DNA from: Leucoraja ocellata
Taxonomy: Eukaryota
Assembly (NCBI GenBank): GCA_036785375.1
Contig: JAWMAR010000070.1
Coordinates: forward strand, 4,340,001 to 4,404,000
Direction of reading: 5' to 3'
DNA: 64,000 bases
Position numbers and translations under genes: made by a program. Within the stretch, counting starts at the first letter, position 1. Every line of letters begins with the position of its first letter. Below the pieces are notes generated by a model. That model was not told the DNA's origin. It made no database searches and saw only the letters and a list, made by a program, of their open reading frames with translations. Below, piece by piece: positions 21,512 through 57,857 of this stretch.

Positions 21512-21602
21512 CTTAGAGCCTCTTGTGAGCACCGCGGTTGAGATACTCCAGATCACAAGCAGGAGAAAGAACATCCAGCGCCCCACTTCCCATGAGATGT
21601 AA
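21512..21602 (-). CDS. Gene B transmembrane exon with Arg (YISWEVGRWMFFLLLVIWSISTAVLTRGSK)
   Basis: tttgcccag acceptor, TAAG|GTAGGT donor, phase 2 to 0. Confidence 0.8.
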
Positions 21603-23216: not shown

Positions 23217-23265
23217 CTTGCAGAGTAATTGGATGGTATCGAATTTTCACAATAACATTCAAGAC
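23217..23265 (-). CDS. Gene B 49-nt Cys linker exon (GLECYCENSIPSNYSAR)
   Basis: ccaacag acceptor, CAAG|GTAAAA donor, phase 1 to 2. Confidence 0.75.
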
Positions 23266-24547
23266 CTGTTGGAACAAGGAAATACAAGTCAGTTTCACTG
23301 CTTTTCACTTGCAGTTTAACAAGTAGCTATGATTTTCCGATGCACGGAGTTGATAGGCTTAACAGACAGGGCAATGCTTCTTCTGTGTGATTTGCAGCAA
23401 ATGGGAGATGTTATCATGACAAGCAGCAGTGCTGGTAACAACTCTGGCTCCAGGTGTAGATGGCACGATGGCGCAGCGGTAGAGTTGCTGCCTTACCGCC
23501 AGAGGCACGGGTTCGATCCTGACCACGGATGCTGTCTCCACGGAATTTGTAACTCCTCCCTGTGACCGCGTGGGGTTTCTACAAGTGCTCCAGTTTCCCC
23601 ACAGTCTGAACTCTTGCAAGTGTGTTGGTTAATTGGCTTCTGTAAATTGTCCCCGTGGAACTAGTATACTGGTGATTACTGGACGTTGTGTACTCAGTGG
23701 CACGAAGAACCGGCTTCCACGATGTATCCACAAATTAATCAAAAGGGTCCAATTTCATTTGAGAGGAGTATTGCTTGGGATGAAACATTACAGTTATGGG
23801 GAGGGGTTGGATAGGGGTTTTATAAAGTTCCATGCAGAACAGGTGAGGAAGGGGGGATCTATTACAGGTGTGCAAAACTATGAGCAGCAGGGTATTTTTT
23901 GAACATTTTACATGACAGATATGTGTAAAAGTGGAGAACATATGGGTAAGTTAAGGAGCAGGATGTTTGAAGGGTATAAATAAATATTTTTAAACCGAGA
24001 AGATAGAGGTACCTGAATTGCCTCAATGGACGAGGTGCTGGTAAGTGGGATGAGTATTGATTGTACTGAATGGTCAACATTAACACAGTGGACCAAATCT
24101 GATACCGTCGTCTAGGAGTTAATTGTGGCCACATTTACTGATAATTTCTGATCCCTTCACATATTTGAGTGTCGGTCATGTGGAGATGATGGAAAGTGAA
24201 AATGCTTGGACTGATGTCACTGCAAACCTAGTTTAAAGCTGTGTAAACATAAGAGGCAGTTCTTGCCGGGAAGCTGGCCTACACCAGCACTGGTAAATCT
24301 ATTTCTGGAGCCCAGCAACCAAGTATTGACAAATAATTCCATAATTTTAATCTTGATAACGTAATTAAATAACGTGCATGGATTTCAGGGTGTCTGGGGT
24401 TATGGGGAAAAGGCAGGAGAATGGGGTGAGGAGGGGAAGATACATCAGCCATGATTGAATGGTCTATTTCTGCTTCTACCACATGTGATTTTATGAACCA
24501 CCCCACCCCCACTTCCCCTTCTTCTCCTCATTCCCTCCACTACTTAC

Positions 24548-24868
24548 CAGTGCCGTTGATTTTCACCAGGAAACTGCAGGGCACGTCACTGCTGGAGATG
24601 GACACGTTGACCATTTCACTGGATTTTGATCCATGTTGATTTGAAGCTGTGCAGAAATATTGATGGTGCTGGTGTTTGAAGGATTGACAATGTAGATCCA
24701 GGGCATTGTTGTCTGAGATCTTTGAATCCCCAGATGGGGTCTTTTTATACCAGCTGTAGTTAATGGGAAGGGATCCCTGGACCGACTCACAGGACACTGT
24801 CACTGAGCCCCCGAGACAAGAGACATTGGCTGGTGACAGACACCCAAGCACAGGAACAGACACGGGTT
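24548..24868 (-). CDS. Gene B C2b exon
   Basis: 321 nt, canonical splice sites. Confidence 0.85.
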
Positions 24869-27174
24869 CTGTGGGAAAGGAGCAAACAGTCAGACACTCA
24901 GTGAACATCTGAAAATCAAACACTCGCCAATATCCACCATCTCTGTATCTTCGCCAGAGCCGCCAGGTTGGAATCTGACCCATCCATCTACATAGAGGCA
25001 TATAGTGTAGAAGCAGGCCAACATGTCCATCCACACTAGTTCCACCTGCCCTTGCTTAGCCCATAAGCTTTCAAACGGAAGAGACCGTGCATTTACTCGA
25101 TCTATTCGTCGCGTGATTTTGTAGCTGCCATAAGATCATCCCTCATCCTCCTGCTCTCCCAGAAATAAAGTCCTAGTCCGCTCAATCCCTCCCTGGAGTT
25201 CAGGCACTCAAGTCATGACAGCATCATTGTAAATCTTCTCTGCACCCAATCTTACTTGATAGCATCTTTCCTATAACATGGTGATGAATACTGACCACAG
25301 GGCGGACAAATCATCAGACAATCTTCGATTCTCTTTTACATTTCAGGAATTGCCAGCAGGAAAAAGGGAGCATTGTTTATATAACTGTCGGACCCATCCC
25401 ATCTACATAGATTCGTAGAGTCATACAGTAGAAACCTCGGCCTAACTTGCCCGCGCTGACCAACACGCCCAATCTACACTAGTTCCACCTGTCCTTTCTT
25501 GGCCCTTAACCCTCTAAACATATCCTATTCATGTAACTGTCCAATATTTTCTGAAATGTTACGTTAGTACCGGCCATAACTACTTCCGTCAGCATTTCGT
25601 TTCATGGACCTACCAACCTTTGTGTAAACACGTTACTCGCCAGGTTCCTGTTAAATCATTCCCGCCTGATATGAAAACTATGTCCTCTGGTTCCCTATTC
25701 CCCTACTCTGGGCAAAAGACTGTGTATTTACTCGATCTATTCCTCGCGTGATTTTTGTGATTTAAAATATATATATATATATATTTTTATTAGAATCAAT
25801 GTACAGTAGTATAAACCGTGTTTTACATATTACATTTAGTGTAAAACTTCTTGTTTTTAATTTATTAATAGAAAAGTAACAGAAACAAAAAGAGAAGGAG
25901 AGAGAAAGTTAAGTAGTGATATTGATAGTTCGTGAAAGAATAGATAGAAAGAACCCGTAAAGATATAAAGCCGCAAAAAAAACGTGAACCCCCCCCCGAA
26001 AAATAAATACATAAATTAGTAAATAGAAATAAAAAATAGAAAATAAAATAAAATAATAAGGAAACGAAACAGAAAAAGAATAAAAGGGAGAAGGGATATA
26101 CCTGCTTCATGTCTTTCCACACCCCTCACCCAGTTCTGAAACAGTTAATTTCCAGGGTTATGTTGCACCATGTACTTGGAATAAGTCGATAAAAGGAGAC
26201 CAAATCTTTAGGAATTGGTCTGCTTTACCTGCAAGGCCGAATCTCATATCTTCGAGGTGTAACATTTCAGACATGCTTGAAATCCACATTTTACGCGTGG
26301 GGGTGGGTTCGTTGTTCAAGAATTTGAGTATACGTTTTTTTGCTGTTATCAAGCCATGGTTAAGGAGAGAATTTTGGAACGAAATCACCTTAGAGCCGGC
26401 TTCCATTGTTCCAAAAATAATCAATTCAGTGTTGGGGTCCAATTTTATTTTAAACTCGCGTGATTTTTTTACCTGCAATAAAATCACCCCTCATCCTCCT
26501 GCGCTCCAAGGAATAAAGCCCTAATCTGCTCAACCCCTCCCTGTATACCAGGCCCTCAAGTCATCGCAACATTCTTGTAAATCTTCCCTGCTCCTTCTCC
26601 TCACAATCAATTTACCAGATTTATACATCTCTGTGTCTCCCCATCCTCCCAGCCGCCAGAACTACCATGTCTGCCACTGGACCTGTACACAGCAGCACCA
26701 TCTCTCTTTGTTTTACAATTCCAGCATCTGCAGTTAAAATTCTTTTAATCTGAGCCTCTGCTTTTAATCTGAACATTCAAACACATCATTAGTGCAACAG
26801 TATCACTATCAACAACTTTTTAATTTCCTTGCACAGAATAGTTGATAGTGATAATGTTGCACTAATGAGGTGTGTGAATGGCGGTATCGTAGAATTGTGT
26901 GTAGGGAGCGAATGGGGAAGTTGAATAATATAAAACTAGTGTGACCGGTGATCGCTAGTTGGTGAGGACTCGGTGGGCCGAAGGATCCGTTTCCATGTTA
27001 CATTTGTAAACTATTACTAAATATCCGGGTGAACATTTTTCTGTAAACTCTACAAACCTTCCACATCTTTTGTTTTATAAATCGGCGACCAGACCTGTGC
27101 ACCAGACTCCCACCTAACAAATGTTTTGTCCGTTGCCAAAGTGGAGACATAAAGTCACTCATTGAGAAACCTAC

Positions 27175-27478
27175 CATCAGATACTTGGAGATGTACTTTA
27201 AACGCCAGGTGTAGTAATTCCACAGCTGTACCATCCTGTATCTCCAGAGTTAAGATCCTCCACAGTCACAGTAAATATTCCTCGTGCCGGGTTATCTGAC
27301 ATTGACACTCTTCCACTCTGCCCACGTTCCCTATTTGTTTCCACTGCATGTGTACACTGGCGACTTGTCCCGTTGCACCAGTATTTTGTGAGTGAGCGGT
27401 ACACTGCTGGATAGTGACACTCGATTGTGATCGCTCGTCCCACAACCCCGTGTACTTCGCTCTCTGCCCGCTGTGCAC
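27175..27478 (-). pseudogene. Gene B V4-type exon with 8-bp deletion and premature stop
   Basis: 304 nt versus 312 in paralogs; plus-strand tgttggtt is missing near 27202; reads ...GITTPGV*. Confidence 0.85.
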
Positions 27479-28591
27479 CTGAAACTGAAGGAAACATCTT
27501 TCATAAATTGAAGAGAAAAATTAGCCTTTCACAAACATATACATTATAGTATACATCAATGTGTACAGGGGAGTCCGCCCAATCGTTTTCTTAACTCTGT
27601 TGAATTCCACCTAAATTGCGATGAGAGACAGATACTGTACACCGCCCCTCACCATCTGCACAGATCGTTCCAAAGCGCTTCCCAGCCAATGTGGGTGTGA
27701 ATGGTGAAGAATGATGCATTGAACGCTGAGCCTGTTGCAATTGGAAGGCGCTGTCTCGGGAGTCTTGGTGAGTTGCTGCAGTGCATCGTGCAGATGGTGC
27801 AAACTGCTGCTGCTCTGCATCAGCGGTTGAGGATGGGGTGTCTATCAAGTGCGATTCTGGATCATGACAGACCAAGCACAAGTGTTCAGCGGAATTGTAG
27901 CCGAGGCCACTGCTTCTTAAACTAGTGAATGGTTCACCCAAGGGTGAATGAAATTATTTTGGGGTGAATTAGTTAATTTATGTTTTTTGCTCATGTGACA
28001 TAATTAATTATATATGAAATTATGCACAAAGGAAAATAAGATGATAATAACCAAAAAAACATAAGAACATTTAGTTGAGAGGGAATTACATCTTGTAATA
28101 AAGACTCAAGGGTGAATGACACTGAAATATTTTAAGAAGAACTGCCATTCTATAAACTTGGTCACTCTGATTTACACTCTATTCTGGACTTCCAATCTGA
28201 ACGTCTCCACGCCTACTGGGAAGATCTTTTCAAAATTCTCTTTAACAAAATTAAGGGTTATACTTGATGGAGTGACGGCCAAGTAGATTCCACTTTAATT
28301 TTGTGAGATTACTGGAGTTTGACTCAAATTACCAGTTAAAATCATAAACATAATCATGAAATTGTACACCCTTCATTGGAAATGATGGCGGATCCAAACA
28401 GAAAGAATTTGGTGCGTTCTCCGACTCAAAGTGAGTGTGAGACCTTAAGTGGCAGCCAGAAATAATATTTTTAAGTTGGAAGGCCGAAATTTGATGGAAT
28501 GTACTAAACACGTTGTGATAAGTGCAGGCTTGTCCCTCCTTTGCTGAAATTGCTCAACACATCCCAGATGGAAGCAACAGCCAATTATTTG

Positions 28592-28722: not shown

Positions 28723-29043
28723 CTGCATTGTTGATTTCTGTCACATAACTGCACGTTCCTGCTCCTTTCAAGACTTTCACGTTGAGACTTTCACTGGATT
28801 TTGTCCCATGATTATTTGAGGCTGTGCAGTAATATTGACGGTGTTGCCCTCCGAGGATTTCACAACTCAGATCCAGTTGATTGCCATACACGGTAGTTGA
28901 AACCCAATGCTCGTTCATCTCAAACCATGTGTAACGGATGGGAAGGGATCCACGGACAGACTCACACGACACTGACACTGAGCCTCCGAGACGTGAGGCA
29001 TTTGCTGGTGACAGATATCTGAGCACAGGAGCAGACACGGGTT
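28723..29043 (-). CDS. Gene B C2a-type exon
   Basis: 321 nt, GCAG|GTGAGT donor. Confidence 0.85.
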
Positions 29044-30189: not shown

Positions 30190-30504
30190 CGTCAGATACT
30201 TGGAGATGTACGGAAAATATTGGATGGGCGGCAGATGTTCTAATTCCACAGATGTATCTTCCTGTATCTCCAGAGTGAAGATCCTCCACAGTCACAGTAA
30301 ATATGCTTAGTGCCGGTATATCTGTGATGGACACTCTTCCATTCCGTCCGTGTTGCCCATTTGTTTCCACCATATCTGTACATTGGCGACTCCACCCACG
30401 GCACCAGTATTTTGTGTGTGAGCGGTACTCTGTTGCATAGTGACAATCGATTGTGATCGCTCTTCCCACATCTCCTGTTACATTCTTCTTCCCCCAAACT
30501 GCAA
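30190..30504 (-). CDS. Gene B Ig V exon (V3-like)
   Basis: 315 nt, atttcag|TTGCA acceptor, GACG|GTACGT donor; KYWCRGWSRQC, DTGRYIC. Confidence 0.85.
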
Positions 30505-31600
30505 CTGAAATGGAGGGGAAAAACTTTTAGATGGAGAGCAAATGAACTGTTTAATGGAAATAGATACATTTCGAAGATTACATGAAAGAAAACATAAACG
30601 TTCCAGATGTGTCATATTGCTTCACGGCCAATGTCTCCGGTCTGAAGTGCAGACAGTGCTGTTATTGTACCAGTTGTGTCAGTGTTCTATCCCCGGATCA
30701 GTACAATTAGGGTTCACTTCCCACTCCAGATCCCTGAGCAGAAACTGGGCTGGAATCGCAATTCGGTACTGAGGGAGCGCGGCAGTGTTGCAGGAGCTGC
30801 CTTTCAACAATCCCAGGCGGTGCCCGGCCTCTCACCCCACATAAAGACCCCACTTTGCTATTTAATTGGCGGTGCCGCCGGCTGCGCTGCCAACATTCTT
30901 CTCTCAACCGACACTGGGCCGGACCCGTGTTTAGATATTCACCGCCTTTACAACGCCCTGACTGAGGACAGTGGACGGACGGGTTACAATAAAGGGGATC
31001 AAAAGATAAGGAGCAGGATATTTGAAGGGTATAAATAAATATTTTTAAACCGAGAAGATAGAGGTACCTGAATTGCCTCAATGGACGAGGTGCTGGTAAG
31101 TGGGATGAGTATTGATAGTACTGAATGGTCAACATTAACACAGTGGCCCAAATGCGATACCATCGTCTAGGAGTTAACTGTGGCCACATTTACTGATAAT
31201 TTCTGATCCCTTCACATATTTGAGTGTCGGTCATGTGGAGATGATGGAAAGTGAAAATGCTTGGACTGATGTCACTGCAAACCTAGTTTAAAGCTGTGTA
31301 AACATAAGAGGCAGTTCTAGCCGGGAAGCTGGTCTACACCAGCACTGGGAAATCTATTTATGGAGCCCAGCAACCAAGTATTGACAAATGGGCCATAATT
31401 CCATCATTTTAATCTTGATAACGTAATTAAATAACGTGCATGGATTTCAGGGTGTAGGGGGTTATGGGGTGAAGGCAGGAGAATGGGGTGAAGAGGGGAA
31501 GATACACCAGCCATGATTGAATGGCCTATTTCTGCCGCTATCCTATGAACCACCCCGCCCCCCACTTCCCCTTCTTCTCCCCATTCCCTTCACTACTTAC

Positions 31601-31921
31601 CAGTGCCGTTGATTTTCACCAGGACACTGCAGGGCACGTCACTGCTGAAGATGGACATGTTGACCATTTCACTGGATTTTGATCCATGTTGATTTGAGGC
31701 TGTGCAATAATATTGATGGTGCTGGTGTTTGAAGGATTGACAATGTAGATCCAGGGCATTGTTGTCTGAGATCTTTGAATCCCCAGATGGGGTATTTTCA
31801 TACCAGCTGTAGTTAATGGGAAGGGATCCCCAGACCGACTCACAGGACACTGTCACTGAGCCCCCGAGACAAGAGACATTGGCTGGTGACAGAAACCCAA
31901 GCACAGGAACAGACACGGGTT
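31601..31921 (-). CDS. Gene B extra C2b-type exon (inserted module)
   Basis: 321-nt open exon with canonical sites, near-identical to 24548..24868. Confidence 0.82.
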
Positions 31922-34064
31922 CTGTGGGAAAGGAGCAAACAGTCAGACACTCAGTGAACATCTGAAAATCAAACACTCGCCAATATCCACCATCTCTGTA
32001 TCTTCGCCGCAGCTGCCTGGTTGGAATCTGACCCATCCATCTACTTAGAGTCATAGAGGCATATAGTGTAGAAGCAGGCCAACATGTCCATCCACACTAG
32101 TTCCACCTGCCCTTGCTTAGCCCATAAGCTTCCAAACGGAAGAGACTGTGCATTTACTCTCATTTAATATCTATTCGTCGCGTGATTTTGTAGCTGCCGT
32201 AAGATCATCCCTCATCCTCCTGCTCTCCCAGAAATAATGTCCTAGTCTGCTCAATCCCTCCCTGGAGTTCAGGCACTCAAGTCATGCTTCAGGCTCTCAA
32301 CCGACACTGGGCCGGACCCGTGTTTAGACATTCACCGCCTTTACAACGCCCTGACTGAGGACAGAGGACGGACGGGTTACAATAAAGCGGATCAAAAGAT
32401 AAGAGACCATAGGTGCAGGAGTAGGCCATTCGGGCCTTCGAACCAGCACCGACATTCACTATGATCATGGCTGATCATCCACAATCAGTACCCCGTTTCT
32501 ACCTTACCATATATCCCCTAGCGCCGCTATCATTTGGAGTTCCATCTAACTCTCCCTCCCTGACGTTTAGTGTCGAGACCCATGCTCAGACCCGAAACTT
32601 CACCAATTCCTTCTCTCCAGAGATGCTGCCTGTCCCGCTGAGTTACTCCAGCATTTTTTTGTCTATCTTTAATTGACTTTTATTTCCTTTTCTCAACAGA
32701 ATCTGAATCTGTTCGCGAGTCGTTAACAACTGTAGCGTTCAGTTCAAATACAAAAGTAACACCCGAAAACAGTCATCAGGAAACCACTGCGCCCAGTTTC
32801 TCTCGCGGGTGTAATGTTCTGTTGCTCAAGTTTTGATTGGCCTTACTTTTCCATATGAGAGTTGGAGACACATGGAACTGTAGATACATACATAGATACA
32901 TAGATACATAGATGCATAGACAATAGGTGCAGGAGTATCCCATTCAGCACTTCGGGCCAGCACCGCCATTCTTTGTGATCATGGCTGATCATCCACAATC
33001 AGTACCCCGTTCCTGCCTTTCCCCATATCCCTTGATTCCGCCAGCCCAAATAGCTCTATCTAACTCAAAAGAATGCACCCAGTGAATCGGCTTCCACTGC
33101 CGTCTGAGGTAGAAAATTCCACAGATTCACAACTCTCTGGTTGAAAAGGTTTTTCCTCATCTCCGTTCTAAATGGCCTATCCATTATTCTTAAACTGTGG
33201 CCCCCTGGTTCTGGACTCGCCAATATCGGAAACATGTTAGGTACACAAAAATGCTGGGGCAACTCAACGGGTGCAGCAGCATCTATGCAGCGAAGGAAAT
33301 AGGCGACATTTCGGGCCGAAACCCTTCTTCAGACTGTTTCCTGCCTCTAGCGTGTCAAATCCTTTAATAATCTTATATGTTTATATCCCTCAATAGCAAG
33401 AAGGTCCTTCCTCAAATATGGAGTTCAAAACTGAACCAATATTCCAGGTGTGGTCTCACTAGGGCCACGTACAACAGCAGAAGGACTATTTTGCTCCTGT
33501 GCTCAAATCATCGTGTTATTAAGGTCAACATGCCACTAGCTTTCTTCACTGCCTGCTGCACCTGCATGCTTTATTTCAGTGAGTGATGAACAAGGACCAC
33601 CCAGATCTAGTTGTACTTCTCCTTTCCCCAACCTGACACCATCCAGAAAATAATCTGCCTTCCTGCTTTTGCTACTAAAGTGGATAACCTCACATTTATC
33701 CACATTAAACTTAATCTGCCACGCATCTGCCCACTAACACAACCACTCGCCCACTCACCACTCGCTCACTCACCACCCACCTCCAGGTCCCTTATCGGAG
33801 AGCGTTACGAGCGTGAAATCGCACACCGCCAGATTCGGGAGCAATTTCTTCACATCTGAATCATCCTACCACATCCAGAGATCTGTCCTGAACTCCCATC
33901 TACCTCTTTGACGACCCTCGGACTACCCTTGATCGGACTTTGCTGGCTTTACCTTACACTAAACGTTATTTCCTTTTCATGTATCTATGTCCTGTAAGAG
34001 GATAGATTGTAATCCTGTATTGTCTTTCTGCTGGAGACGTCAAGTCAATCGCTGCGAAACCTAC

Positions 34065-34379
34065 CGTCAGATACTTCGAAATAAACGTTAAATATTGGAT
34101 GGTCGGCAGATGTTGTAATTCCACATCTGTACCATCCTGTATCTCCATCCTGAAGATCGTCCACAGTCACAGTAAATATTCCTCGTGCCGGGTTTTCTGT
34201 GATTGACGCTATTCCACTCCGTCCGTGTTGTCCATTTGTTTCCACCAAAACTGTACATTGGAGACTCCTCCCACGGCACCAGTATTTTGTGTGTGAGCGG
34301 TACTCTGCTGCATAGTGACAATCGATTGTGATCGCTCTTCCCACAACTCCTCTTACATCCCTCTTTGCCCACACTGCTC
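34065..34379 (-). CDS. Gene B Ig V exon (V1-type)
   Basis: 315 nt, phase 1-1; KYWCRGRSLQC, DTGWYRC. Confidence 0.88.
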
Positions 34380-35952
34380 CTGAAACTGAGCGAAGAAACT
34401 TTCAGATGGAGAGAAAATTAACTGTTTAATTGAAATAGACACACATTGAAGATTATATGAAAGAAAACTTAAATCGTTCCATGATGTATCATATTGCTTC
34501 ACGGCCAATGTCTCCGGTCTGAAGTGCAGGCAGTGATGTTATTGTACCAGTTGTGTCAGTGTTCTGTCCCCGGGTCAGTAGAATTAGGGTTCACTTCCCA
34601 CTCCAGATCCCTGAACAGAAACAGGGCTGGGATCGCAGTGCGGTACTGAGGGAGCGCGACAGTGTTGCAGGAGCTGCCTTTCAACAATCCCAGGCGGTGC
34701 CCGGCCTCTCAACCCCACAGAAAGACCCCACTTTGCTATTTCATTGGCGCTGCCGTCGGCTACGCTGCCAACATTCATCTCTCAACCGACACTAGGCCGG
34801 ACCCGTGTTTTTTTTAATTATCAAATTATTTATTCAATTATTAAAAGTAATATTTACACTACAATAAAACAAGAACCCAGCACCATAATACAAGACAAAC
34901 AAATATTCTAAATAAACGACTATACTTGTCAAGGATGAATTCAACCACTGGCGGTGCCCAGATGTCCCGGGAATCCCCCAGGTGCCCGTGGACAGCGCCT
35001 AGTCATTCTCTAGCACCACCCGGACGCGGAAAGCCGACCCGTGTTTAGACATTCACCGCCGCCAATGCCTTTACAACGCCCTGACTGAGGACGAGTTACA
35101 AAAAAGCGGGTCCATTACCGGAGAGCGTTATTGGCGTGACAACGCAAACAGCCAGATTCGGGGAAAGTTTCTTCCCAGCTGTTATCAGACATCGGAATCA
35201 TCCTCCCATAACCAGAGAGCAGTGCTGAACTATCTACCTCTTTGGTGACCCTCGGACTACCCTTGATCGGACTTTGCTGGCCTTACCTTATACTAAACGT
35301 TATTTCCCATTCATGTATCTATGCGCTGTAAGGGGATCGATTGTAATCATGTATCTGGCAGGTTAGCATGCAGCATAAAGCTTTTCTCTGTAACTCTGTA
35401 CACGTGACAATAAACTGAACTTGGATTTCAGCACGACCGGGCCGCGGATCCGAGAGCGGATGGAGAGAGAGTTGGGGGTGGGTGGATAGAGCGAGGACAG
35501 TGGTTCGGTCTCAGACTCCGGGGAATTGTTGGGTTTGCGACAGAGTTGAGATGGACAAATGCAGGGAATATTTGAACTGACACAATGAGACCTCAATCGT
35601 GACTTCCACCTCTGTTGTAAACACATTTTGTTAGTGTAGAATTAACTTCCTGGTGATGTTGGAACCTCTATCCTTCGGTCCAGGTGTCTTGGAGTATCTG
35701 CTCCAAATACATGCGCTATTTTATGCCGATAAACTACCATCAGGATGCAATTAGACCACGTGTTAGCGGTGGTTAAACTACGAACATTGTCTAGATATTC
35801 AAATGTGATTTCAGATCCATCACCACAATGCACTGAGTTCCAGCTCCGCCATTACATGTCTACACACACTTAACCATCTCTGCTGTAGAAAGGGTGCACG
35901 GGACCCCAACTAACATTGATCATTGGAATATCAGGATCTGGCTTTCACTCAC

Positions 35953-35989
35953 CCGGCAGCGAGGAGATGAGAAGAATGGGAATCCACAT
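35953..35989 (-). CDS. Gene B signal peptide exon (MWIPILLISSLP)
   Basis: ATG at 35989, hydrophobic core, CCGG|GTGAGT phase-1 donor. Confidence 0.85.
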
Positions 35990-36099
35990 TGTTTTATCCA
36001 CAGTGACAAAACCAGCACTTGTCTGTCTGTCGCTCAGCTCTGAGCTCTCAGATACAATCTCAAATAGCAATTACAAGAAGGGAACAGGACGTGAGATCC

Positions 36100-36165
36100 T
36101 GAACCACAGCGAGCCAGCAGCAGCTCGACACTTTACAGTGTGAAAGGCTCTGGGTTATATTTAAC
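36100..36165 (-). promoter_or_regulatory. Putative core promoter of gene B (TAAATATAA, TGTGGTT)
   Basis: Homologous to 17040..17110. Confidence 0.35.
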
Positions 36166-38629
36166 AAATGGTTGGGTCAGATGATCACGGAAACAGGCCC
36201 TTCTCCCCAACGAGTGAGACCAACAGGCCCTTCTCCCCAACGAGTGAGACCATCTAAGTTAATCAAATTTGTCCACGCTCGACCCATATCTCCCCAAACC
36301 TTCCCCATCCATGGACCTGTCCAAGTGCCCGTTACATGTAGTTATTGCAGCTGGTTCAACCACTTCGTCAAGTGTGATGTATCCATAAGGATGGAGCGGC
36401 GGCCATCTCTGTACTCGGAGTTTGTTAGCACTGAACAATGGGGGAAATAATGATAGACAAAAAATGCAGGAGCAACTCTGCGGGCCAGGCAGCACCTCTG
36501 GAGAAAGTGGATAGGTGACGTTTCGGGTCGGGACCTCTTGTGTAAACAATTAAACTATGGTTAAAGTATGACATTTAGAAGAGTAGAAACGTCTAAGATG
36601 TGTACACTTCCGGATCATTCCCTCTTGATGATTCTTTATGTGGACCGGCAGATCAAAAATATAATCATTGGAACTTTTTTTCGCATATTGCTGTTGACAA
36701 GGGGCAAAACAGGAAGTTGGCATTAGGATGTAGGGGATTTTCACCTGAAATCAGCTGAAGTTAATTGGAGTTTGACCCTCTCCTCTCCGCTTCAACTCTT
36801 CAATTCAAACTTTGAAACACTATTGTTATGATATTCATGTTTTGAAAATGACAATTAATGGTGTAGTGGACTGTGAAGAAGTTTGTCTAGAATTACCACA
36901 GGATGGAGATCAGCTGGGAAAGCGGGATGTGGAATGTAACTGACATGTGTAATGTAACTCAAACAAGGGCGAAGTGATACACTTAGTGAAGTTAAAGCAA
37001 GGATGATAATGCACGGTGAATTGAATTGTTAACTTGTGTACGTTGCAATTCAGAGCTACTAAATTATCAGAGTTGCGATCATGTACATTTCATTGGCTAA
37101 CATTGTACATCTGCTTGCAACGATTTCATTCTGTAGGCAACTAGTTGTTTTATAATATAACCTAATATCTGCTGCGGGCTATCGTTCTGGGTGTGTCACT
37201 TTCAGGGGAACAGTGCAGTTTATTCGGGTTGTGTACATCTGTGGCAATGTTGTGCATCACGTGGTATCGGTGTAACACACTGATGTGTCTGCCACTGATG
37301 TTAGTTGAGCGTTGACGGCCCTTAGTAAAGGATCTTGTGTGAAAAGCTATTTCCTGTTTACTTGCCCAACTAAAACACTACAGAGAGGAACCGACGATGC
37401 AGCAAAACGATTTAATTCTGTCTTCATTCGCCATTGACCCATGACTTCTGCAAACACTGCTCAGCAAACAGTGTTACACCGAGCTGCTCGCAAGATGCGG
37501 TTCAGAGATACGAATCTACACGAATATTCGAACCTTGTTTCAGCAGCGCGAGCAAAGTGTCAGCACTGCAGAACAATTCAGTGTAAAGAAAGAAATGACT
37601 GTTTGACCATATTAGATTAAATTACATTCCAAGTCAGCACCTGCCATTAAAAACAACAATGGCATCGAACCGAAATGTCACCCATTCTTTCCTTCCAGTG
37701 ATGCTGCCTTTCCCGCTGAATTGCTCCAGTATTTTGTGTCTATCTGTGGCATCTCAGGCCGTTTATCTCTCGCTATTTTTTAGGCAATTTAGGATGTCCT
37801 GTAGTGGGGAAACGCTGAACGAAACAGGCAGCAAATATCTCTGGCTATTCAGCACCCCTCGGATATCGCTGACCTGGGGGTTTCTGATTTCAAAGCAACC
37901 CCTGGTCTCATTTCCTCGTCTCCCCGCTTACTGCTCTTTCAAGCTGCAACCCAACCAGTTTGTTCTGCACAAGAATGGACTTTCCACTAGTTTAGTTTAG
38001 GATACAACGCGGAAACAGGCCCTTCGGCCCACCGAGTCCACACGATCCCGTTGCGCCAACATTGTGTAAACTAGTTTAGTTTAGTGGGCCGAAGTGCCTA
38101 TTTCCACGCTGCAACCATAAACTAATCTGAAGGGAGCAATTTCACTTGAGAGGAGTATTGCTTGGGATGAAACGTCAGGTATGGGGAGGGGTTGAATAGG
38201 GATTTTATAAAATTCCATGCAGAACAGGCGAGGAAAAGGGAACCCATTACAGGTGTGCAGAACTTTGAGCAGCAAAGATAGGGTATTTTTGGAACGTTTT
38301 CCACGGCAGATGTGTGTAAAAGTGGAGACCATTTGGTTAAGTTGATGGAGCAGGATGTTTCAAGGGGAACAAGAAATATGTTTAAACCTAGAAGATGGAG
38401 GTAACTGAATTGCTACAATGGACGAGGTGCTGGTAAATGAGATTAGTGTCGATGGTACTGAATGGTCAACATTAACACAGTGGAACAAATCTGATACCGA
38501 CGTCCAGGAGTTAACGGTGGCCACATTTACTGCTAACATTCATTCCCATATCGTATCTGAGTGCGCATCCTGCGGAGATGATGGTGGGAAAGTAAAAGTG
38601 CTTGGACTGATAATACTGCAGGAGGAGAG

Positions 38630-38990
38630 TACAGCATTCCGCCCTTCGAGCCTGCACCGCCATTCAATATGATCATGGCTGATCATCAAACTCGGTATCC
38701 TGTACCTGCCTTCTCTCCATACCCCCTGATCCCTTTAGCCACAAGGGCCACATTTAACTCCCTCTTAAATATAGTCAATGGACTGGCCTCAACTACCCTC
38801 CGTGGCAGAGAATTCCAGAGATTCACAACACTCTGTGTGAAAAATGTTTTTCTCATCTCGGTCCTAAAAGACTTTCCCCTTATCCTTAAACTGTGACTCC
38901 TTGTTCTGGACTTCCCCAAAATCGGGGACAATCTTCCTGCATCTAGCCTGTCCAACGCCTTAAGAAGGTTGTTAGTTTCTATAAGATACG
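38630..38990 (-). mobile_element. CR1 LINE 3' end fragment
   Basis: DRLDAGRL...TRSHSLRIRGKSFRTEMRK. Confidence 0.75.
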
Positions 38991-39312
38991 AGTGGGTTTA
39001 AACTAAATCGCGTGCTTTCAAGAGAGAGTTAGATAGAACTCTTAAAGATAGCGGAGTCAGTGGATATGGGGAAAAGACAAGAACGGGGTAATGAATGTGA
39101 ATGAGCAGCCATGATCACGGTGAATGGCGGTGCGGGCTCGAAGGGCCGAATGGCCTACTCCTGCCCTGTTGTCTATTGTCTATTGTCTATTTTCTTCCAC
39201 ATCTTTTGTTTTATAAAGCTGCGACCAGAACTGTGCACCAGACTCCCATATGTTACCTAACACATGTTTTGTGTGGGTGCCAAGATATCAAGCCACTGAT
39301 TGAGAAACCTAC

Positions 39313-39624
39313 CTTCAGATACTTGGAGATGTTCTTGAAATGTTGGTTCGCCAGGTGTAGTAAGTCCACAGCTGTATCGTCCTGTATCTCCAGAGTGAAG
39401 ATCCTCCACAGTCACAGTAAATATTCCTCGTGCCGGGTTATCTGTGATTGACACTCTTCCGCTCTGTCCATGTTTCCCATTTGTTTCCACTACATGTGTA
39501 CACTGGCGACTTGTCCCAGGGCACCAGTATTTTGTGTGTGAGCGGTACACTGCTGCATAGTGACAATCGATTGTGATCGCTCTTCCCACAACCCCTCTTA
39601 CATCACTCTCAGCCCACAGTGCAC
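39313..39624 (-). pseudogene. Orphan intact Ig V exon (V4-type), relic gene fragment
   Basis: 312-nt open exon with intact splice sites and all four Cys; flanks (~39190-40290) match the V4 introns; no leader, C2 or TM exon found nearby. Confidence 0.7.
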
Positions 39625-42600
39625 CTGAAACTGAAGGAAACATGTTTCATAAATTGAAGAGCAAAATTAACCTTTCACAAACATATACATAGTATATTAT
39701 AGTATACACCAATGTGTATAGGGGAGTCCGCCCAATCATTTTCGTAACCTGTGTTGAATTCCACCTAGATTGCGATGAGAGACAGATACTGTACACCGTC
39801 CCTCACCACCTGTACAGGTCGTTCCAAAGCGCTTCCCAGCCAATGTGGGTGTGAATGGTGAAGAATGATGCATTGAAAATGGAGCCTGTTGCAATTGGAC
39901 GGCGCTGTCTAGGGAGTCTTGGTGAGTTGCTCCAGTGCATCGTGCAGATGGTGCAAACTGCTGCTGCTCTGCATCAGCGGGGGAGGTTGACGACGGGGTG
40001 TCTACCAAGCGCGATTCTGGGTCATGACAGACGAGCACAAGTGTTCAGCGAAACTGTGGCCTAGGCTTTGCTTGGCCTCGCTGATGTAAACCATTCACAC
40101 TCGCTTCTGGACTTCCCCTCTGAGCGTCTCCACACCTACTGGGAGCTACATTTCAAAACTCACTTTGACAAAAGTAACGGGTTTACTTTATGGAGTGACG
40201 GGGAGGAAGATTCACTTTAATTTTGAGAGATTATTGAGGTTCCTCCAGAGATTCACACAAATTAATACGTTTTTAATCCTGCCATGATCATGAAACCCAT
40301 GCGTACACAAGCAGACCGTACAAACTCCATACAGACAGCACCCAAGGTCAGGATCGAACCCGGGATTCGGATGCTGTGAGGCAGCGGCTCTACCTGTTGT
40401 GCCAATGTGTGATTGTCTCAGATATCTTTCAACTTTCCTTGCAGGCAAGAACAAGGATTGAACCCTGGTTAGCAGCATGGGGGCTGCATGCTTGCAAACC
40501 GGCAAGCTAAGTGCAGAGTTAAGTCTATGGTACTTCCTCCCCGATGGTTTTGCAAGCAGACTGTGAACACCCTTCCTTGTGTGTTGGTGATAAGGGCTCC
40601 CCGGTCAGATACTTTTTGCGTTGCGTTTTGTTGCACAACCACAGAGCTCCACAAGGCAGCTGTGCTCTGGACAAAACTGTTATCCATCTACTTCTGCAGT
40701 GTACAATTGGCAAAAAAACGTTATAGATACAACATGGAAACAGGCTCTTCGGCTCACCGGATCTGCGCCAACCAGTGTTCACCCCGGATACAATTTACTG
40801 TGCAATTTAACCTACAAACCTGTCTGTCTTTGGTGTGTGGGAGGAAACCGGAACACCGCGAGAAAATCCATGCGGACACAATGAGAACGTACAGACTCCA
40901 TATAGACAGCAGCCGAGATCAGCATTGAACCTGGGTCTCAGGCGCTGTTAGACAGCAACACTACTGCTATACCACTTTGTTCAACCTACTGACTTGCCAG
41001 AACAATGTGTTCCCCCTGAGCTAACATTCTTATATCTTCGATTTTCCAGCACCTGCAGTTCCTTCTTAAACATTCTTATACCCTGCATGTTCTTGCTGAA
41101 TTCTTGAGAACCAGAGGACATAGTTTGAGAACCAGAGGCATAGGTTTAAGGTGAGGGGAAAAGATTTAATAGGAACCTGAGGGAAGCTGAACAGGATAGG
41201 TTTACAGAGATATGAGCCAAATGTCTTTAGTCAGAGAGTGGTGAGTTTGTGGAATTTATTTCAACAAGCAACTGTGGAAGCCTATTCGATGGATATTGTT
41301 TAGGCAGAGATTGACAGATTCCTGATTAGTGTGGGAGTCAGGGGTTATGGGGAGAAGGCAGGTGAATGGAGGTGAATGTAGATCAGCCACGATTGAATGG
41401 CGGAGTAGAGTTGATGCGCCGAAAGGCCAAATTCTGCACTTAGAACTTATGAACCTATGAACATTGTGTTTAAGAAGGAACTGCAGATGCTGGGAAATCG
41501 GAGGTACTCAAAAATGCTGGAGAAACTCAACGGGTGCGGCAGCATCTATGGAGCGAAGGAAATAGGCAACGTTTCGGGCCTAACCCCTTCTTCAGGAAGT
41601 ACCATAGACGGGATTTTTTTGTGAGGTTATGAACATTGTTGGTTTGTGGGTTTCTGCTGCAGTCATATTCTGAGAAAAGTAACACCAGCCCGAAGTAAGT
41701 TCCTGACCTGAAATGTCGCTTGCCCATCTCGTTTCAGAGATGATGTTTGACCCACTATGGTGGGGGTTTTTTTTGTTTTGCTCAACTGCTCATATTAACA
41801 GGAAGCACGTTGACCACAGCAAGATGCTGCTCATACATTTGACTCAGACCACAATATTTATTTCCATCACACGTTGGCCTTTGATGTGTTTGTACATTGA
41901 CTGGAAATGTGTTCAAAACAAATAAATGTGTATTGTAGGGTGCACAAATTAATGTACAAATATGTCAGGCCCCATTCAGTCCTTCATAACTACACTATGC
42001 ATTAAACTCATAGCTTATCCTTCATATCAATATCCAGTACTATTTATATTTCCATAAATCCCGTAATATCTAAGAAACAATTGTTCACAGGCTAGATTGC
42101 ATTGGGGTCATACAATGTAGAAACAGGCCCTTCGGCCCTACTTAACCCTTCACACTGCGTTTGGACAATTGAGACAACGAAAACCTCATTCCTTGAACTG
42201 CACTCTCCTGTTCAGTAAGAACTTTGCATATTTTTAACCGCTATAGTTGAGTACCGCTATAGTTGAGAAGAGGTCCTGTAGCAATGCTGCTAAGACCAGA
42301 ATTTCCAAATCGAACTTTCTTCTGCTACAGAAAATGTGATTTTTGGAAGTGTTTCTGTGGTCATGACAGTTGAATCTTCTTGGTTTAGGATCTCACCCAG
42401 AAATTTGCAGTTCAGGCAGTGATGTACTCTACCAGTTGGCACTGTGGTGCTCGTAGGTCATGTGCTCATTTACTGGGGAGGGACGGTGTAGACGGGAAAT
42501 TTTCACGTGGACTCCGGGCTTGTTTTCAGAAAAAAATGTTTTATTACGAATTGACCAACTTTGGTTACACATGTCCTGGGGCTGATGCCCTCAGATACAA

Positions 42601-45416: not shown

Positions 45417-45683
45417 CTAAGAAACGACAGAGGCATAGGTTGACTCAGTGTTCTCTGGAGTCACAGTAGAGTGGGGTTTCCGAATGCCCTTTGGGCAGTT
45501 GCGGTGAAAATTGACATCTGCGTACACGACAGCGTTTTCAGCCGCATGCTGCCTTGATCTTGACTTCCTTTGACAATTCACCACTGCATACGTGATTCCA
45601 CCTTCATTGTTGGCCAAATGGTCACCTGCCCTGTTGTTTTCCAGATTTGAATCAATGTGGTTCCCTTCCAACACTGCCATTTC
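45417..45683 (-). CDS. Gene A terminal cytoplasmic exon with 3 ITIMs (ITYAVV, VVYADV, STYASV)
   Basis: atttcag|GAAATG acceptor, phase 0; ORF 45417..45680 ends in a stop; three (I/V/S)xYxxV motifs. Confidence 0.88.
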   Translation of the reverse strand, partial: EMAVLEGNHIDSNLENNRAGDHLANNEGGITYAVVNCQRKSRSRQHAAENAVVYADVNFHRNCPKGIRKPHSTVTPENTESTYASVVS

Positions 45684-46105
45684 CTGAAATATAACAAAAT
45701 CCCATTTTACATCCTAATAGATTTGAAAGGTCCTCAACAGATGTCTATTACAAAGTAGGCCTCAAACTGTTCAGTGTACAGAACAAGCCATGGCTGCTGT
45801 TTACAACACAAAGATAGCGCAGCACGGTGGAGCAGCGGTAGAGTTGCTGCCTGACAGCGCCTACAACAGGTTTGTATTTTAGGTCAATTGGTTTGGTTTA
45901 ATTGCAAATTTCCCCTAGTGTGTGTAGGATAGTGTTCGTGTGCGGGGTCACCAGTCGGCGTGGGCTCGGTGGGCCAAAGGGCATGTTTCTGCGCTGGATC
46001 TCTCAACTGGAGTGGACTGGTGTTGCTAAACGGCCGGTGTAAACACAGATAATTCAATATTATATATTCTTCAACACTCAGAAAATGTATATTTCACATT
46101 GTTAC

Positions 46106-46152
46106 CTGGGTTTCATCGTTGTCTTCACCGTGTGATGTATTGTACTTGGATT
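46106..46152 (-). CDS. Gene A cytoplasmic exon 1 (ESKYNTSHGEDNDETQ)
   Basis: ttttccag acceptor, CCAG|GTAACA donor, phase 1 to 0, matching both neighbouring exons. Confidence 0.75.
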
Positions 46153-46869
46153 CTGGAAAATATGTTGTCGATAGGGCCATATCAGGAACAGGTTTAAACA
46201 TCATTCATTTATATATTTCATTCCGTGTTCCATGTACCTTCTATATCTCGTGTTCCCCTTTCCCCTGACTCTCAATCTGAAGAAGGGTCTCGACTCGAAA
46301 CGTCACCTGTTCCTTTTCAAGAGTCAAGGGAGTTTTATTGTCATATGTCCCAGATAGAACAATGACAATCTTACTTGCTGCAGCACAATAGAATATGTAA
46401 ACATAGTACATAACGGGAGAGAAAAAAAAGTTCAGTGTGTATATATACACATACACACATACTCAATCTGTTTATTTTATCCAGCTAAGCTGAGAACTAC
46501 TATATTTGATGATTTTCTGTTGCGCTGCTGGCAAAATGTCGCTTCTGACCCGCTAATTGCTAGAGCATTTAATGTTTATCTTCAGTATTAGCCACCATGT
46601 GCAGTTCCTTCCAACACACAAACATCTACATGTTTTGTGCAAGACTTTATATTTAGGAGAACCCCAAAAGTACTTCAGTATATTTGCACGTACAGAGTAA
46701 GTGTATGCCCTCTTGTTCTGGTTACTCTACGTAATGTTCAGAATGGATCATATTCCCTGTGCTCTACCCATTCCACCCTAAAGCTACCTAAACCTACCTG
46801 GTCTCCCTGTTGCTCAACACTTTAACTCCACCTCCCATTCCCACACTAACTATTCTGTCCTGGGCCTCA

Positions 46870-47520
46870 TCCGGATGTTAGACTAACTGGTCTGTAATTC
46901 CCCGTTTTCTCTCTCGCTCTCTTTTTAAAAAGTGGGGTTACATTAGCTACCCTCCAATCCTCAGTAACTACTCCAGAATCTAAAGAGTTTTGAAAAATTA
47001 TCACTAATGCATCCACAATTTCTTGGGCTACTTGTTTAAGTACTCTGGGATGCAGCCTCCTATCTTGCCCAGGGAATTTATCGGCCTTTAATCCATTCAA
47101 TTTACCAAACACCACTTCCCGGCTAATCTGGATTTCACTCAGTTCCTCCATCTCATTTGACCCCTGGTCCCCTGCTATTTCCGGCAGATTATTTATGTCT
47201 TCCTTAGTGAAGACAGAACCAAAGTAGTTATTCAATTGGTCTGCCATGTCCTTGTCCCCCATGATCAATTCATCTGTTTCTGACTGCAAGGGACCTACAT
47301 TTGTTTTAACTAATTTTTTTCTCTTCACATATCTATAAACACTTTTGCGGTCAGTTTTTATGTTCCCTGACAGTTTTCTTTCATAATCTATTTTCCCTTT
47401 CCTAATTAAGCCCTTTGTCCTCCTCTGTGGACTCTGAATTTCTCCCTCTCCTCATGTATGCTGCTTTTTCTGGCTAATTGGTATGCTTATTCTTTTGTTT
47501 TGATACTATCCCTGATTTCA
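46870..47520 (-). mobile_element. CR1-clade LINE fragment
   Basis: ORF 46867..47328 homologous to the N-terminal part of the 54176..55459 ORF. Confidence 0.8.
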
Positions 47521-48126
47521 GCTCTGTGAACCTTCAAGTTTTCATCGGCAGCGGAGATAGTTGGCAGCTTCAAGTTCATGGGCGTTCACATCTTGGATTA
47601 CCTGCCCAGGCTAGACTTGCCCTGCCTCAACTACCTCCTCTGGCAGCTCCTGCCATATACCCACCGCCCTCTGTGTGATGCAGGTATGTCGTACGTTTTC
47701 TATGTCCCTGTGAGGCTGCAGGAGTAATCTTCATTGTAACTGTACTTCAACGTGCTTGTGCATTTGACAATAAACACGACTTAACCTGATTCGAAATACA
47801 ATAGCAAAACACAAAAGCATATTCTAACAGCTGAGAGGATGATAGTATCTATGTAAATCTTACTTCTACCTAACCTCTTAGTTCTCATGCATCTCTGCTA
47901 TTTCACACTCAGTTTCTGTACAATTATGTTAAAATAACATTTTATGTCACCGAGTCACCATGATAGCATCAAACATGATAGCATTATTGATCATTCATGC
48001 TTCCTCCTACTCTTTATTACTTTAATGCAGGGCATTTGTTGATTAGAACAGGATAAAATCTCTTGACTTTCTGCAAGGAACTCAGACATGTATTTTGAAA
48101 TTATTTAAGATAAATCAGAAACTCAC

Positions 48127-48215
48127 CCTTGGTTTTACGCTTTCGGTACCAAAAGAAGGCAATGATGAGAATCAGGAAAAGCACAGTGACACCAGACGCA
48201 ACTATGTAAATGATC
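48127..48215 (-). CDS. Gene A transmembrane exon, uncharged (IIYIVASGVTVLFLILIIAFFWYRKRKTK)
   Basis: Polypyrimidine tract plus caacag acceptor, AAGG|GTGAGT donor, phase 2 to 1; hydrophobic run followed by basic stop-transfer RKRK. Confidence 0.88.
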
Positions 48216-50643: not shown

Positions 50644-50692
50644 CTTGATAAAGCATTGGATCCTTTCGAAGTTTCACAAGAATATTCAAGTC
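50644..50692 (-). CDS. Gene A 49-nt Cys linker exon (GLEYSCETSKGSNALSR)
   Basis: ttccttgttcacacag acceptor, CAAG|GTAAAC donor, phase 1 to 2, bridging C2b (phase 1) to the TM exon (phase 2); homologs in B and C. Confidence 0.8.
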
Positions 50693-51952
50693 CTGTGTGA
50701 ACAAGGAAATATAAATCAGTTTCACTGATTTTCACCTGCAGTTGAACAAGAGAGCATGCTTGTCCGATGTAAGGAGTTTATAGATTTAATAGACAGGGCA
50801 ATGTTTCTCCAGTGTAATTTGCAGCAAATGGGAGATGCTTGCACAACTCAGGTCACCAACATTAGGGCGGCATAGCGGTAGAGTTGCTGCCTTACAGCGC
50901 CAGAGACCCGGGTTCAATCCTGACTACGGGTACAATCTGCACGGAGTTCGTATGTTCTCCCCGTGACCGCGTGGGTTTCATTCAAATGCTCCGGTTTTCT
51001 CCCACATTCTAAAGTAGTGCAGGTTTTTAAGGTTAATTGCCTTCTGTAAATTGTCCCTAGTGAGTAGGATGGAATTTGTGCACCGGTGAAAAGCAGCTAC
51101 TTCCACCTGGAATTCTAAACAAAACTAAAGGAGGTGATTTCATGCGAGGGATAGTGCCTGGGATGAAACATTACAGTTCGAAGGAGAAGGCTGGATAGAT
51201 GGGGATTTTAATCCATACAGGAAAAGAAGCGGGAGCCTATTACAGCTGTGCAAAGCTATGAGGAACATAGATAGGGTACTTTGTGGGAAATCAGCACAGC
51301 AGATGTGCGTAGAAATGGAGAACATAAGGTTGGGTTAAGGAGTAGAATATTTGGAGGGTATATGAGCAAGACGTATTTTTAAACTTAGATAGTGGAGGCA
51401 CTTGAATTGTCAAGTCTGAGAAGACTGTGGATGAGGGGCTGGTAAATGGATTAGTATCGATGGTTCTAAATGGTCAACATTAACACTGTGGACCAAAGCT
51501 GAGGAGTCCAGAGTCCTCGAGGAGTTATCTGCGGCCACATTTACGGATAATTTATGTTCCCTTCCCATATTTGAGCGTCGGTCATGTGGAGATGATGGAA
51601 AGTGAAAGTGCTTGGACTGATGTCACTGCAAACCTAGTTTAAAGGTGTGTAAACATAAGAGGAAGTTGTAGCCGGGAAGCTGGCCTACACCAGCACTGGG
51701 AAATCTATGTCTGGAGTCCAGCATTGACAAATGGACCATAATTACATCATTTTAATCTTGATAAGTTAATTAAATAACGTGCATGGATTTCAGGGTGTCG
51801 GGGGCTACGGGGAGAGGACAGGATAATGGGGCGAAGAGGGGAAGATACATAAGCCATGATTGAATGGTCTATTTCTGCTTCTATCACTTGTGATCCTACG
51901 AACCACCCCACCTGCACTTCCCCTTCCTCTCCCCATTCCCTCTACTACTTAC

Positions 51953-57716: not shown

Positions 57717-57779
57717 CAGTCCCCCAAACAAATTCTCTCATTTTACACCATGAGCTCCCGGTGGCTGCAATGATGCCGT
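57717..57779 (-). CDS. Gene A 63-nt Cys linker exon (DGIIAATGSSWCKMREFVWGT)
   Basis: ttatttgcag acceptor, ACTG|GTAAAT donor, phase 1-1; conserved in gene C. Confidence 0.65.
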
Positions 57780-57857
57780 CTGCAAATAACAAGAAATCCA
57801 TGAACATCATCACAAGGCGAATAGCAGCAGGTTCAGGGACACGAGAAGAACACACAC

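What the first reader, a model, noticed from the sequence alone, without database searches (positions are those of the whole stretch)
30901..32403. Recent exon shuffling: a C2b module inserted into gene B between 110-bp direct repeats
Seen: 31011..~32286 is a copy of the C2b exon plus flanks (homologous to ~23955-25217). It sits between two V exons and is bracketed by a 110-bp direct repeat (30901..31010 and 32294..32403). The left junction shares the microhomology taag. The right junction has a near-repeat, ttcaggcactcaa / ttcaggctctcaa. The phase 1-1 exon keeps the frame and gives a new V-C2b-V-C2a order, without the Cys linker that normally follows C2b. Inference: a replication template switch or repair-mediated insertion created a new domain architecture.
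Basis: partly seen in the sequence, partly recalled or inferred. Interest (0 to 1): 0.7.

Follow-up and report, generated by a model that had tools for sequence, protein, structure and literature searches.

The report
Copied exon in skate immune receptor
An extra immunoglobulin exon with its flanking intron DNA sits between two near-identical 110-base stretches in three copies of a skate immune-receptor gene, likely pasted in long ago by one DNA-replication or repair slip; it is a clear but ordinary case of domain shuffling in a known, highly variable gene family, and the copy in this window has a frameshift.

Summary
In detail: 1,276 bp carrying a phase 1-1 C2 exon (31601-31921, intact AG/GT) lie between 110-bp direct repeats (107/110 identical), with TAAG microhomology at one junction and a 7-nt templated-looking filler at the other. 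The locus is a skate MDIR (pIgR/CD300-like) cluster with 39 leader-headed units in 860 kb. It is not an artefact and not very recent: both junctions occur exactly three times in the genome, always together, in three diverged gene copies. A little-skate protein model has the same inserted exon. Insert-donor and repeat-repeat divergence are both about 3%. Paralogs show the empty site; the repeat is 97 bp of intron plus 13 bp of an adjoining repeat block. The anatomy matches a single-template 'cycle of templated insertion' (about 0.65; duplication plus deletion about 0.2). Corrections: the window copy is frameshifted in a later V exon, one other copy has a stop, and only one copy is intact (711 aa). 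The donor cannot be named. Exon inclusion in mRNA is untested. The V-C-V-C-V-C order and linker-less internal C2 domains already exist in this family. An earlier scan note called a skate cluster in another genome MDIR; none described this insertion.

The parts
30901..31010 (.). Left copy of the 110-bp target duplication: 97 bp of leader-V-type intron (30901-30997) plus the first 13 bp of the adjoining repeat block (30998-31010)
31007..31010 (.). Left-junction microhomology TAAG (7/8 when extended to 31003)
31011..32286 (-). Inserted 1,276-bp copy of a C2b exon with about 590 bp of downstream and 365 bp of upstream intron, same orientation as the gene
31601..31921 (-). Inserted C2b exon, 321 nt, phase 1-1, open frame, AG/GT intact, five Cys
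32268..32300 (.). Right junction: 13-nt near-repeat (32268-32280 / 32288-32300) with 7-nt filler 32287-32293
32294..32403 (.). Right copy of the 110-bp duplication
32391..33785 (.). 1.4-kb patchwork block of high-copy repeats inserted without target duplication into the V4-Vk intron; absent from empty-site paralogs. Resemblance of its ends to CR1-type LINE tails is recalled, not tested
35953..35989 (-). Gene B1 leader exon (from ATG)
34065..34385 (-). Gene B1 first V exon (V4 type)
30190..30504 (-). Gene B1 second V exon (Vk type, found only in the three B genes)
28723..29043 (-). Gene B1 C2a exon
27175..27484 (-). Gene B1 V1 exon, 310 nt: 8-nt deletion, frameshift and stop after 533 aa
24548..24868 (-). 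Gene B1 terminal C2b exon (one of eight close donor-type loci)
23217..23265 (-). Cys-bearing linker exon after the terminal C2b
21512..21602 (-). Transmembrane exon with an Arg near its N-terminal end (MDIR5-like, short-tail type)
   Evidence: P0038
20821..20868 (-). Short cytoplasmic tail exon to the stop codon

Best explanation
A 1.28-kb piece of genomic DNA holding a C2b exon sits between two copies of a 110-bp target in three MDIR gene copies, likely placed there by one replication or repair template switch in their common ancestor. Inferred steps: a fork or break end stood 13 bp inside a repeat block in the intron between the first two V exons; it jumped by 4-8 nt of microhomology to the intron beside a C2b exon (its own gene's or a neighbour's), copied 1,276 bp, and returned 110 bp behind its exit point with a short templated stutter, so 110 bp were copied twice. 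Shown: the exon is symmetric (phase 1-1) with intact splice sites, so splicing it in would give V-C2b-V-C2a-V-C2b without a frame change. The gene was then duplicated to three copies: B1 (window) has a frameshift in V1, B3 has a stop in its second V, and B2 keeps a 711-aa open frame with a short-tail transmembrane exon, predicted to be an activating-type receptor with a longer ectodomain and probably one unpaired Cys in the inserted domain.
For: Both junction 20-mers occur exactly 3 times in 3.44 Gb, at the same three loci; no copy has one junction alone in 860 kb, one mismatch allowed. Seven paralogs carry the first 91-100 bp of the repeat once; 5 of the 6 read continue straight into the sequence at 33787. 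B2 aligns to a D-type gene contiguously across the site. Repeat-repeat divergence (3-4 of 110, 2.7-3.6%) matches insert-donor divergence (2.6-4.7% over 8 close donors), as expected if both arose together. Junction microhomology is unlikely by chance (1.7% exact, 0.26% for 7/8). Introns are kept in the insert, so the template was DNA or unspliced RNA. The structure fits the definition of a 'cycle' of templated insertion, which re-replicates a host segment (PMC7025897, passages read). A second junction in the cluster, a V1-C2b duplication, also has a near-repeat filler. Little-skate model XP_055510906.1 has the same order and the insert's diagnostic M/F/V residues, 626/649 identical to B2.
Against: Sequence alone cannot show that the two junctions formed at once; later loss of an intermediate would look the same. 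The donor is unresolved: an open fork in the tree, and all 8 close donors have Cys at exon codon 10 where the inserts have Phe. There is no sign of purifying selection on the inserted exon: its 4 variable sites among the three copies are all nonsynonymous, and exon vs intron variation is 4/321 vs 25/946, P=0.20. Two of three copies are broken. The little-skate model is automated, runs on into a second gene and ends without a transmembrane region, so it is weak evidence for splicing.
Confidence: 0.65

Rival explanations
1. Two separate events: an internal tandem duplication from the V4-Vk intron through C2b, then a deletion that removed Vk-C2a-V1 from the first copy; the 110-bp repeat is just the offset between two breakpoints in the same intron.
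For: Both kinds of event exist separately in this cluster: a V1-C2b tandem duplication (gene at C70:4117325) and a V2-to-C2b deletion (gene at C70:4425250), each with non-homologous junctions. This intron has several older breakpoints within about 200 bp (homology ends at 30798, 30874, 30932). The equal divergence times also fit.
Against: It needs two rare events with breakpoints within 110 bp in a 2.17-kb intron (about 10% by my arithmetic if uniform). No intermediate with one junction is found in the genome.
Confidence: 0.2
2. RNA-templated insertion: a LINE reverse transcriptase primed at the site, copied 13 nt of its own tail, jumped to unspliced MDIR pre-mRNA at the TAAG microhomology and copied the exon with its introns.
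For: The left junction lies only 13 bp into the end of the repeat block, and the insert has the orientation expected for cDNA of the host transcript. No paralog has the block's left end without the insert. The LINE-tail identity of that end is recalled, not tested.
Against: The tail is present twice (13 bp on the left, the whole block on the right), which needs a second priming at the same base. A 110-bp duplication is far longer than usual target duplications (recalled). The insert has no poly(A) or tail at either end. The block's other end is shared with a paralog lacking the insert, so at least that part is older.
Confidence: 0.07
3. End-joining capture: a double-strand break with nicks about 110 nt apart was filled in and a free 1.28-kb fragment was joined in by polymerase-theta-type end joining.
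For: The short templated filler and imperfect microhomology at the junctions fit this route as well (that these are theta-type scars is recalled).
Against: It needs a free fragment of a neighbouring gene in the right orientation and a very long stagger. It cannot be told from the best explanation by sequence.
Confidence: 0.07
4. Assembly artefact.
For: The region is a tandem cluster of 90-97% identical genes. No listed contig piece from the four other runs bridged a junction by the tool's 31-base rule.
Against: The two repeats differ, the insert differs by 2.7% or more from every donor, the same junctions stand at three loci 1.1-2.0% apart in two orientations, and another assembly's protein model has the same exon.
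Confidence: 0.01

Closest known systems
MDIR, modular domain immune-type receptors of the clearnose skate (MDIR3 ABC86797.1, MDIR5 ABC86800.1; names)
   Same: The inserted C2b is 83-85% identical to MDIR3/MDIR5 C2 domains. Same leader, V and C2 modules, linker, and short-tail transmembrane region as MDIR5. Described as multigenic activating/inhibitory receptors related to CD300, TREM and pIgR (PMC3031540, passages read).
   Different: MDIR3 is V-V-C2a-V-C2b and MDIR5 is V-C2a-V-C2b; gene B has a terminal-type C2b in second position. The original MDIR paper (PMC3701310) was not held, so I could not check which orders it reports.
Cycle of templated insertion / template switching (Li et al. 2020, PMC7025897; passages read)
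   Same: A copied template is strung into a host locus and the path returns behind its exit, re-replicating a host segment; the paper notes insertion of exons from other genes by this route.
   Different: Described there as somatic events in human cancers; here it is a fixed germline event with one local template, later amplified by gene duplication.
Primate KIR cluster fusion genes (PMC7516082; passages read)
   Same: A tandem paired-receptor cluster in which recombination, with breakpoints in intragenic transposable elements, shuffles domains and leaves pseudogenes.
   Different: Those are described as unequal crossing-over between similar sequences; this event joins non-homologous sequence and adds one exon with a target duplication.
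Leucoraja erinacea XP_055510906.1 ('Fc receptor-like protein 5') and Amblyraja radiata XP_032898773.1
   Same: The first has V-C2b-Vk-C2a-V1-C2b with the insert's diagnostic residues. The second has the orthologous Vk (97-98/104 identical to the B copies).
   Different: The A. radiata model has a V directly before Vk and no inserted C2b, but its first V is of another type, so it is only a hint of the empty state.

Membership tests
MDIR | V domains of the pIgR/CD300 type | tested here: met
   V-set hits for 3 of 3 V exons scanned; MDIR5's best solved relatives are pIgR, FCRL5 and CD300; window V exons align to MDIR-like proteins
MDIR | Modular ectodomain of V plus C2 domains close to named MDIRs | tested here: met
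   C2b 85% to MDIR5, 83% to MDIR3, 66% to MDIR2
MDIR | Multigene family with short-tail and long Tyr-motif-tail forms | tested here: met
   39 leader-headed units in 860 kb with both tail types; activating or inhibitory function is inferred from motifs
MDIR | Expressed type I membrane receptor | tested here: inconclusive
   B2 has an open 711-aa frame with a transmembrane exon; B1 and B3 are broken; RNA coverage too low
Cycle of templated insertion | Inserted segment is a copy; donor-type locus retained | tested here: met
   8 close terminal C2b loci at 2.6-4.7% divergence
Cycle of templated insertion | Return to the host behind the exit point, re-replicating a host segment | tested here: met
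   110-bp duplication; single copy at empty sites
Cycle of templated insertion | Both junctions formed in one event | tested here: inconclusive
   Always together in 3 of 3 copies and of similar age, but the order of events cannot be observed
Symmetric (phase 1-1) exon shuffling | Whole symmetric exon moved with breakpoints in introns and intact splice sites | tested here: met
   321 nt, AG/GT in 3 of 3 copies
Symmetric (phase 1-1) exon shuffling | Exon is spliced into the host mRNA | tested here: inconclusive
   No joint listed in 3 RNA runs read at 1-5% depth; only an automated little-skate model includes it
Retrotransposon transduction or processed retrocopy | Intron loss, poly(A) or element tail at the insert end, short target duplication | tested here: not met
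   Intron flanks kept on both sides, no tail at the insert ends, 110-bp duplication

The most novel reading that the evidence does not exclude
A LINE reverse transcriptase jumped from its own RNA tail onto the unspliced transcript of the host receptor gene and wrote one exon with its introns back into that gene, creating an expressed six-domain activating receptor (copy B2) whose free cysteine makes it a covalent dimer: RNA-templated exon shuffling with a 110-bp target duplication.
Probability: 0.06. Interest if true: 0.62.

Novelty: new member of a known kind. Interest (0 to 1): 0.3.

Why it matters
Exon shuffling is usually inferred from domain orders long after the breakpoints have decayed. 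Here the two junctions, the target duplication, the empty site and the donor-type loci can all still be read, so it is a base-resolved example of a non-homologous event adding an Ig module in the germline of a cartilaginous fish. It shows that the 'modular' MDIR family varies by microhomology-type events as well as by unequal crossover. It does not add a new mechanism or a new overall receptor layout, and two of the three copies are broken, so the biological effect may be small. The intact copy offers a simple test of whether a terminal-type C2 domain is tolerated inside the chain.

Tried and rejected
Sequencing runs: no RNA holder listed; best DNA shares 0.38-0.43. Contigs of 4 of the 24 listed runs: high-copy repeats swamped the tables and no listed piece bridged a junction by 31 bases on both sides. 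Two runs (X1, X3; two organism codes) have pieces over 32638-32877 with 3 differences in about 240 bases, a stretch of the B-gene block; a hint only. RNA reads of 3 runs (1-5% of each run read, 86-129 reads laid, mostly repeats): no joint listed; two reads join C2a to a V1-type exon; no verdict on inclusion. Donor search: tree of 14 full-length rows out of 72 hits, built on the 760-kb set with 97 kb not yet fetched; the genome-wide list (40 of 5,241 candidates scored) shows no closer donor; the donor stays open. Dating by the epaulette shark pedigree rate (7e-10 per site per generation, CI 1.4-14.1e-10; PMC10587355, passages read): 1.5% per lineage gives about 1e7 generations even at the upper bound, which is too long to take literally; used only to say 'millions of years'. 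Selection test on the exon: too few changes. The MDIR papers (PMC3701310, PMC2823954) were not held. Literature searches for MDIR gave one relevant paper and nothing on this insertion among the listings; the library lacks most subscription papers, so this is not proof it is unpublished. No structure was predicted, because the tool gives no coordinates to read disulfides from. No supplements were read.

Full report
1. The observation. The two 110-bp stretches at 30901-31010 and 32294-32403 differ at 3 positions. Between them, 31011-32286 is homologous to the flanks and exon of terminal C2b exons, including 23948-25217 in this window. The exon is 31601-31921, 321 nt, with AG and GT intact and phase 1 on both sides; it scores as an Ig domain. 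At the left junction target and donor share TAAG, and 7 of 8 bases when extended; random junctions between the same two sequences reach this in 1.7% and 0.26% of 200,000 draws. At the right junction donor homology ends at 32286, seven bases follow that are in neither flank as such, and they form a 12/13 near-repeat of donor sequence 20 bp upstream. The filler can be read as a copy of nearby donor DNA, or as target DNA with four donor bases put in; each reading leaves one base unexplained.

2. What the locus is. The inserted domain's relatives are all from sharks, rays and skates among the 120 listed of 129 hits; the closest are skate proteins, including the named MDIR5 (85%) and MDIR3 (83%). 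MDIRs are described as multigenic activating/inhibitory receptors related to CD300, TREM and pIgR (PMC3031540, passages); MDIR5's solved relatives are pIgR, FCRL5 and CD300. In 860 kb around the window (1,200 bases masked) I count 39 leader-headed units in blocks of both orientations. Their orders range from no Ig exon, through V-C, V-C-V-C and VVV-C-V-C, to five V-C pairs. Gene B in the window is leader-V4-C2b-Vk-C2a-V1-C2b-linker-TM-short tail.

3. Three copies, so neither artefact nor fresh. The whole 1.7-kb structure is found three times on the contig: the window (B1), C70:4510966-4512657 (B2) and C70:3964474-3966164 (B3, inverted), at 98%. Each junction 20-mer occurs exactly three times in 3.44 Gb, at those loci, and never alone in the cluster with one mismatch allowed. 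The inserts differ from each other by 1.1-2.0% and the genes by about 0.4-4.6% per kb. Left and right repeats differ by 3, 4 and 4 of 110; one difference (30972) is shared by all three copies. Inserts differ from the eight closest donor-type loci by 2.6-4.7% and share 9 substitutions and one deletion found in none of the 11 other loci. The Leucoraja erinacea model XP_055510906.1 has the same order, carries the insert's M, F and V residues near the domain end, and is 626/649 identical to B2, yet matches none of the three copies exactly. So the event is old enough to be shared with another assembly and probably another species. With the very low shark mutation rate (PMC10587355, passages) 3% means millions of years; that rate cannot be applied literally.

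4. The empty site. Seven paralogs carry the first 91-100 bp of the repeat once. Five of the six I read continue directly into the sequence found at 33787 in the window; one breaks off in a deletion. The last 13 bp of the repeat are instead the start of a 1.4-kb block of high-copy repeats (32391-33785) whose left end occurs only in the B genes. The simplest order is: repeat block first, then the insertion, which duplicated 97 bp of intron and 13 bp of the block. The block's right end is shared with a paralog that lost its Ig exons. A paralog with the whole block but no insert was not found. The Amblyraja radiata model XP_032898773.1 has the orthologous Vk directly after a V, with no C2b, but that V is of another type.

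5. Mechanism. Shown: a copied template, retained donors, return behind the exit point, microhomology and filler. This is the anatomy of a one-template 'cycle of templated insertion' (PMC7025897, passages). Inferred: one template-switch event (0.65). The main rival is a tandem duplication plus a deletion (0.2): both event types exist separately here, one with its own near-repeat filler, but two breakpoints within 110 bp in a 2.17-kb intron have about 10% chance by my arithmetic, and no intermediate survives. An RNA-templated jump (0.07) fits the orientation and the nearness to a repeat end but must copy that end twice. End-joining capture (0.07) cannot be told apart. The donor is not identifiable: the three inserts form a supported clade on an open fork, B1's terminal C2b groups apart from those of B2 and B3, and all eight close donors have Cys at exon codon 10 where the inserts have Phe. 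The window's own terminal copy is not the closest (3.75% vs 2.69%).

6. Does it make a new protein? B1, the copy in the window, has an 8-nt deletion in V1 and stops at 533 aa before the membrane anchor, unless V1 is skipped (607 aa). B3 has a stop in Vk at 259 aa. B2 is open for 711 aa. All four variable sites among the inserted exons change a residue, and the exon is not significantly more conserved than its flanks (P=0.20), so there is no sign of constraint, on few data. Splicing was not shown. The transmembrane exon has an Arg near its start and the tail lacks Tyr motifs, as in MDIR5, which suggests an activating receptor (inference from paired-receptor families, recalled).

7. How new is the layout? 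A V-C-V-C-V-C gene also arose by C2a-V1 duplication (C70:4624945), and a linker-less internal C2b arose by V1-C2b duplication (C70:4117325). Among 120 fetched homologues, 72 have an internal C2 domain (some are chained gene models) and 26 of these keep the first Cys in at least one internal C2. This suggests Cys18 pairs with the linker Cys and is left free in the inserted domain. It is inferred, not modelled.

8. Verdict. Real, well-preserved, mechanistically readable exon insertion in a known variable receptor family; known mechanism, known overall layout, window copy broken. New member of a known kind; interest 0.3. An earlier scan note (e1-9563184, another genome) also filed a skate cluster as MDIR; I had reached that reading before seeing it. 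Look-ups by place and by sequence found nothing.

Noticed in passing
window 27175-27484: V1 exon of gene B has an 8-nt deletion causing a frameshift; skipping this symmetric exon would restore a 607-aa frame.
   Followed up: yes
window 39314-39622; also G000:C70:3886949, 4078625, 4407091: Orphan V1 exons (whole or partial) sit after the cytoplasmic exon of long-tail genes, with no leader of their own.
   Followed up: no
window 35109-40000 vs G000:C70:3882522-3887618: B1's leader and upstream DNA match another lineage (92-95%) rather than B2, so B1 is likely a chimera with a crossover in the leader-V intron.
   Followed up: partly
G000:C70:3883365, 4227462, 4308024: Units with leader, (linker,) transmembrane and tail exons but no detectable Ig exon: all ligand-binding domains deleted.
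   Followed up: partly
G000:C70:4128215-4128285 (L025): Independent V1-C2b tandem duplication whose junction also has a near-repeat filler and 4-nt microhomology.
   Followed up: partly
G000:C70:4578229-4644388: Three long-tail genes with 2, 3 and 4 tandem C2a-V1 modules.
   Followed up: no
G000:C70:3.96-4.15 Mb vs 4.21-4.52 Mb: Gene blocks of opposite orientation, each headed by a B-type gene; likely a large inverted duplication. B2 and B3 are only 0.4-0.6% apart at window-equivalent 23-25 kb, suggesting gene conversion.
   Followed up: partly
window 32561-33238: Part of the repeat block matches (83%) stretches at G000:C70:4669593-4670245 and on contig C1141, which also holds C2b-like sequence; a second MDIR-like locus or haplotype piece.
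   Followed up: no
window 45420-62578: Gene A (V4-V3-V2-C2a-V1-C2b) has the long tail with Tyr motifs, while genes B and C have the short tail: a paired-receptor layout within the window.
   Followed up: partly
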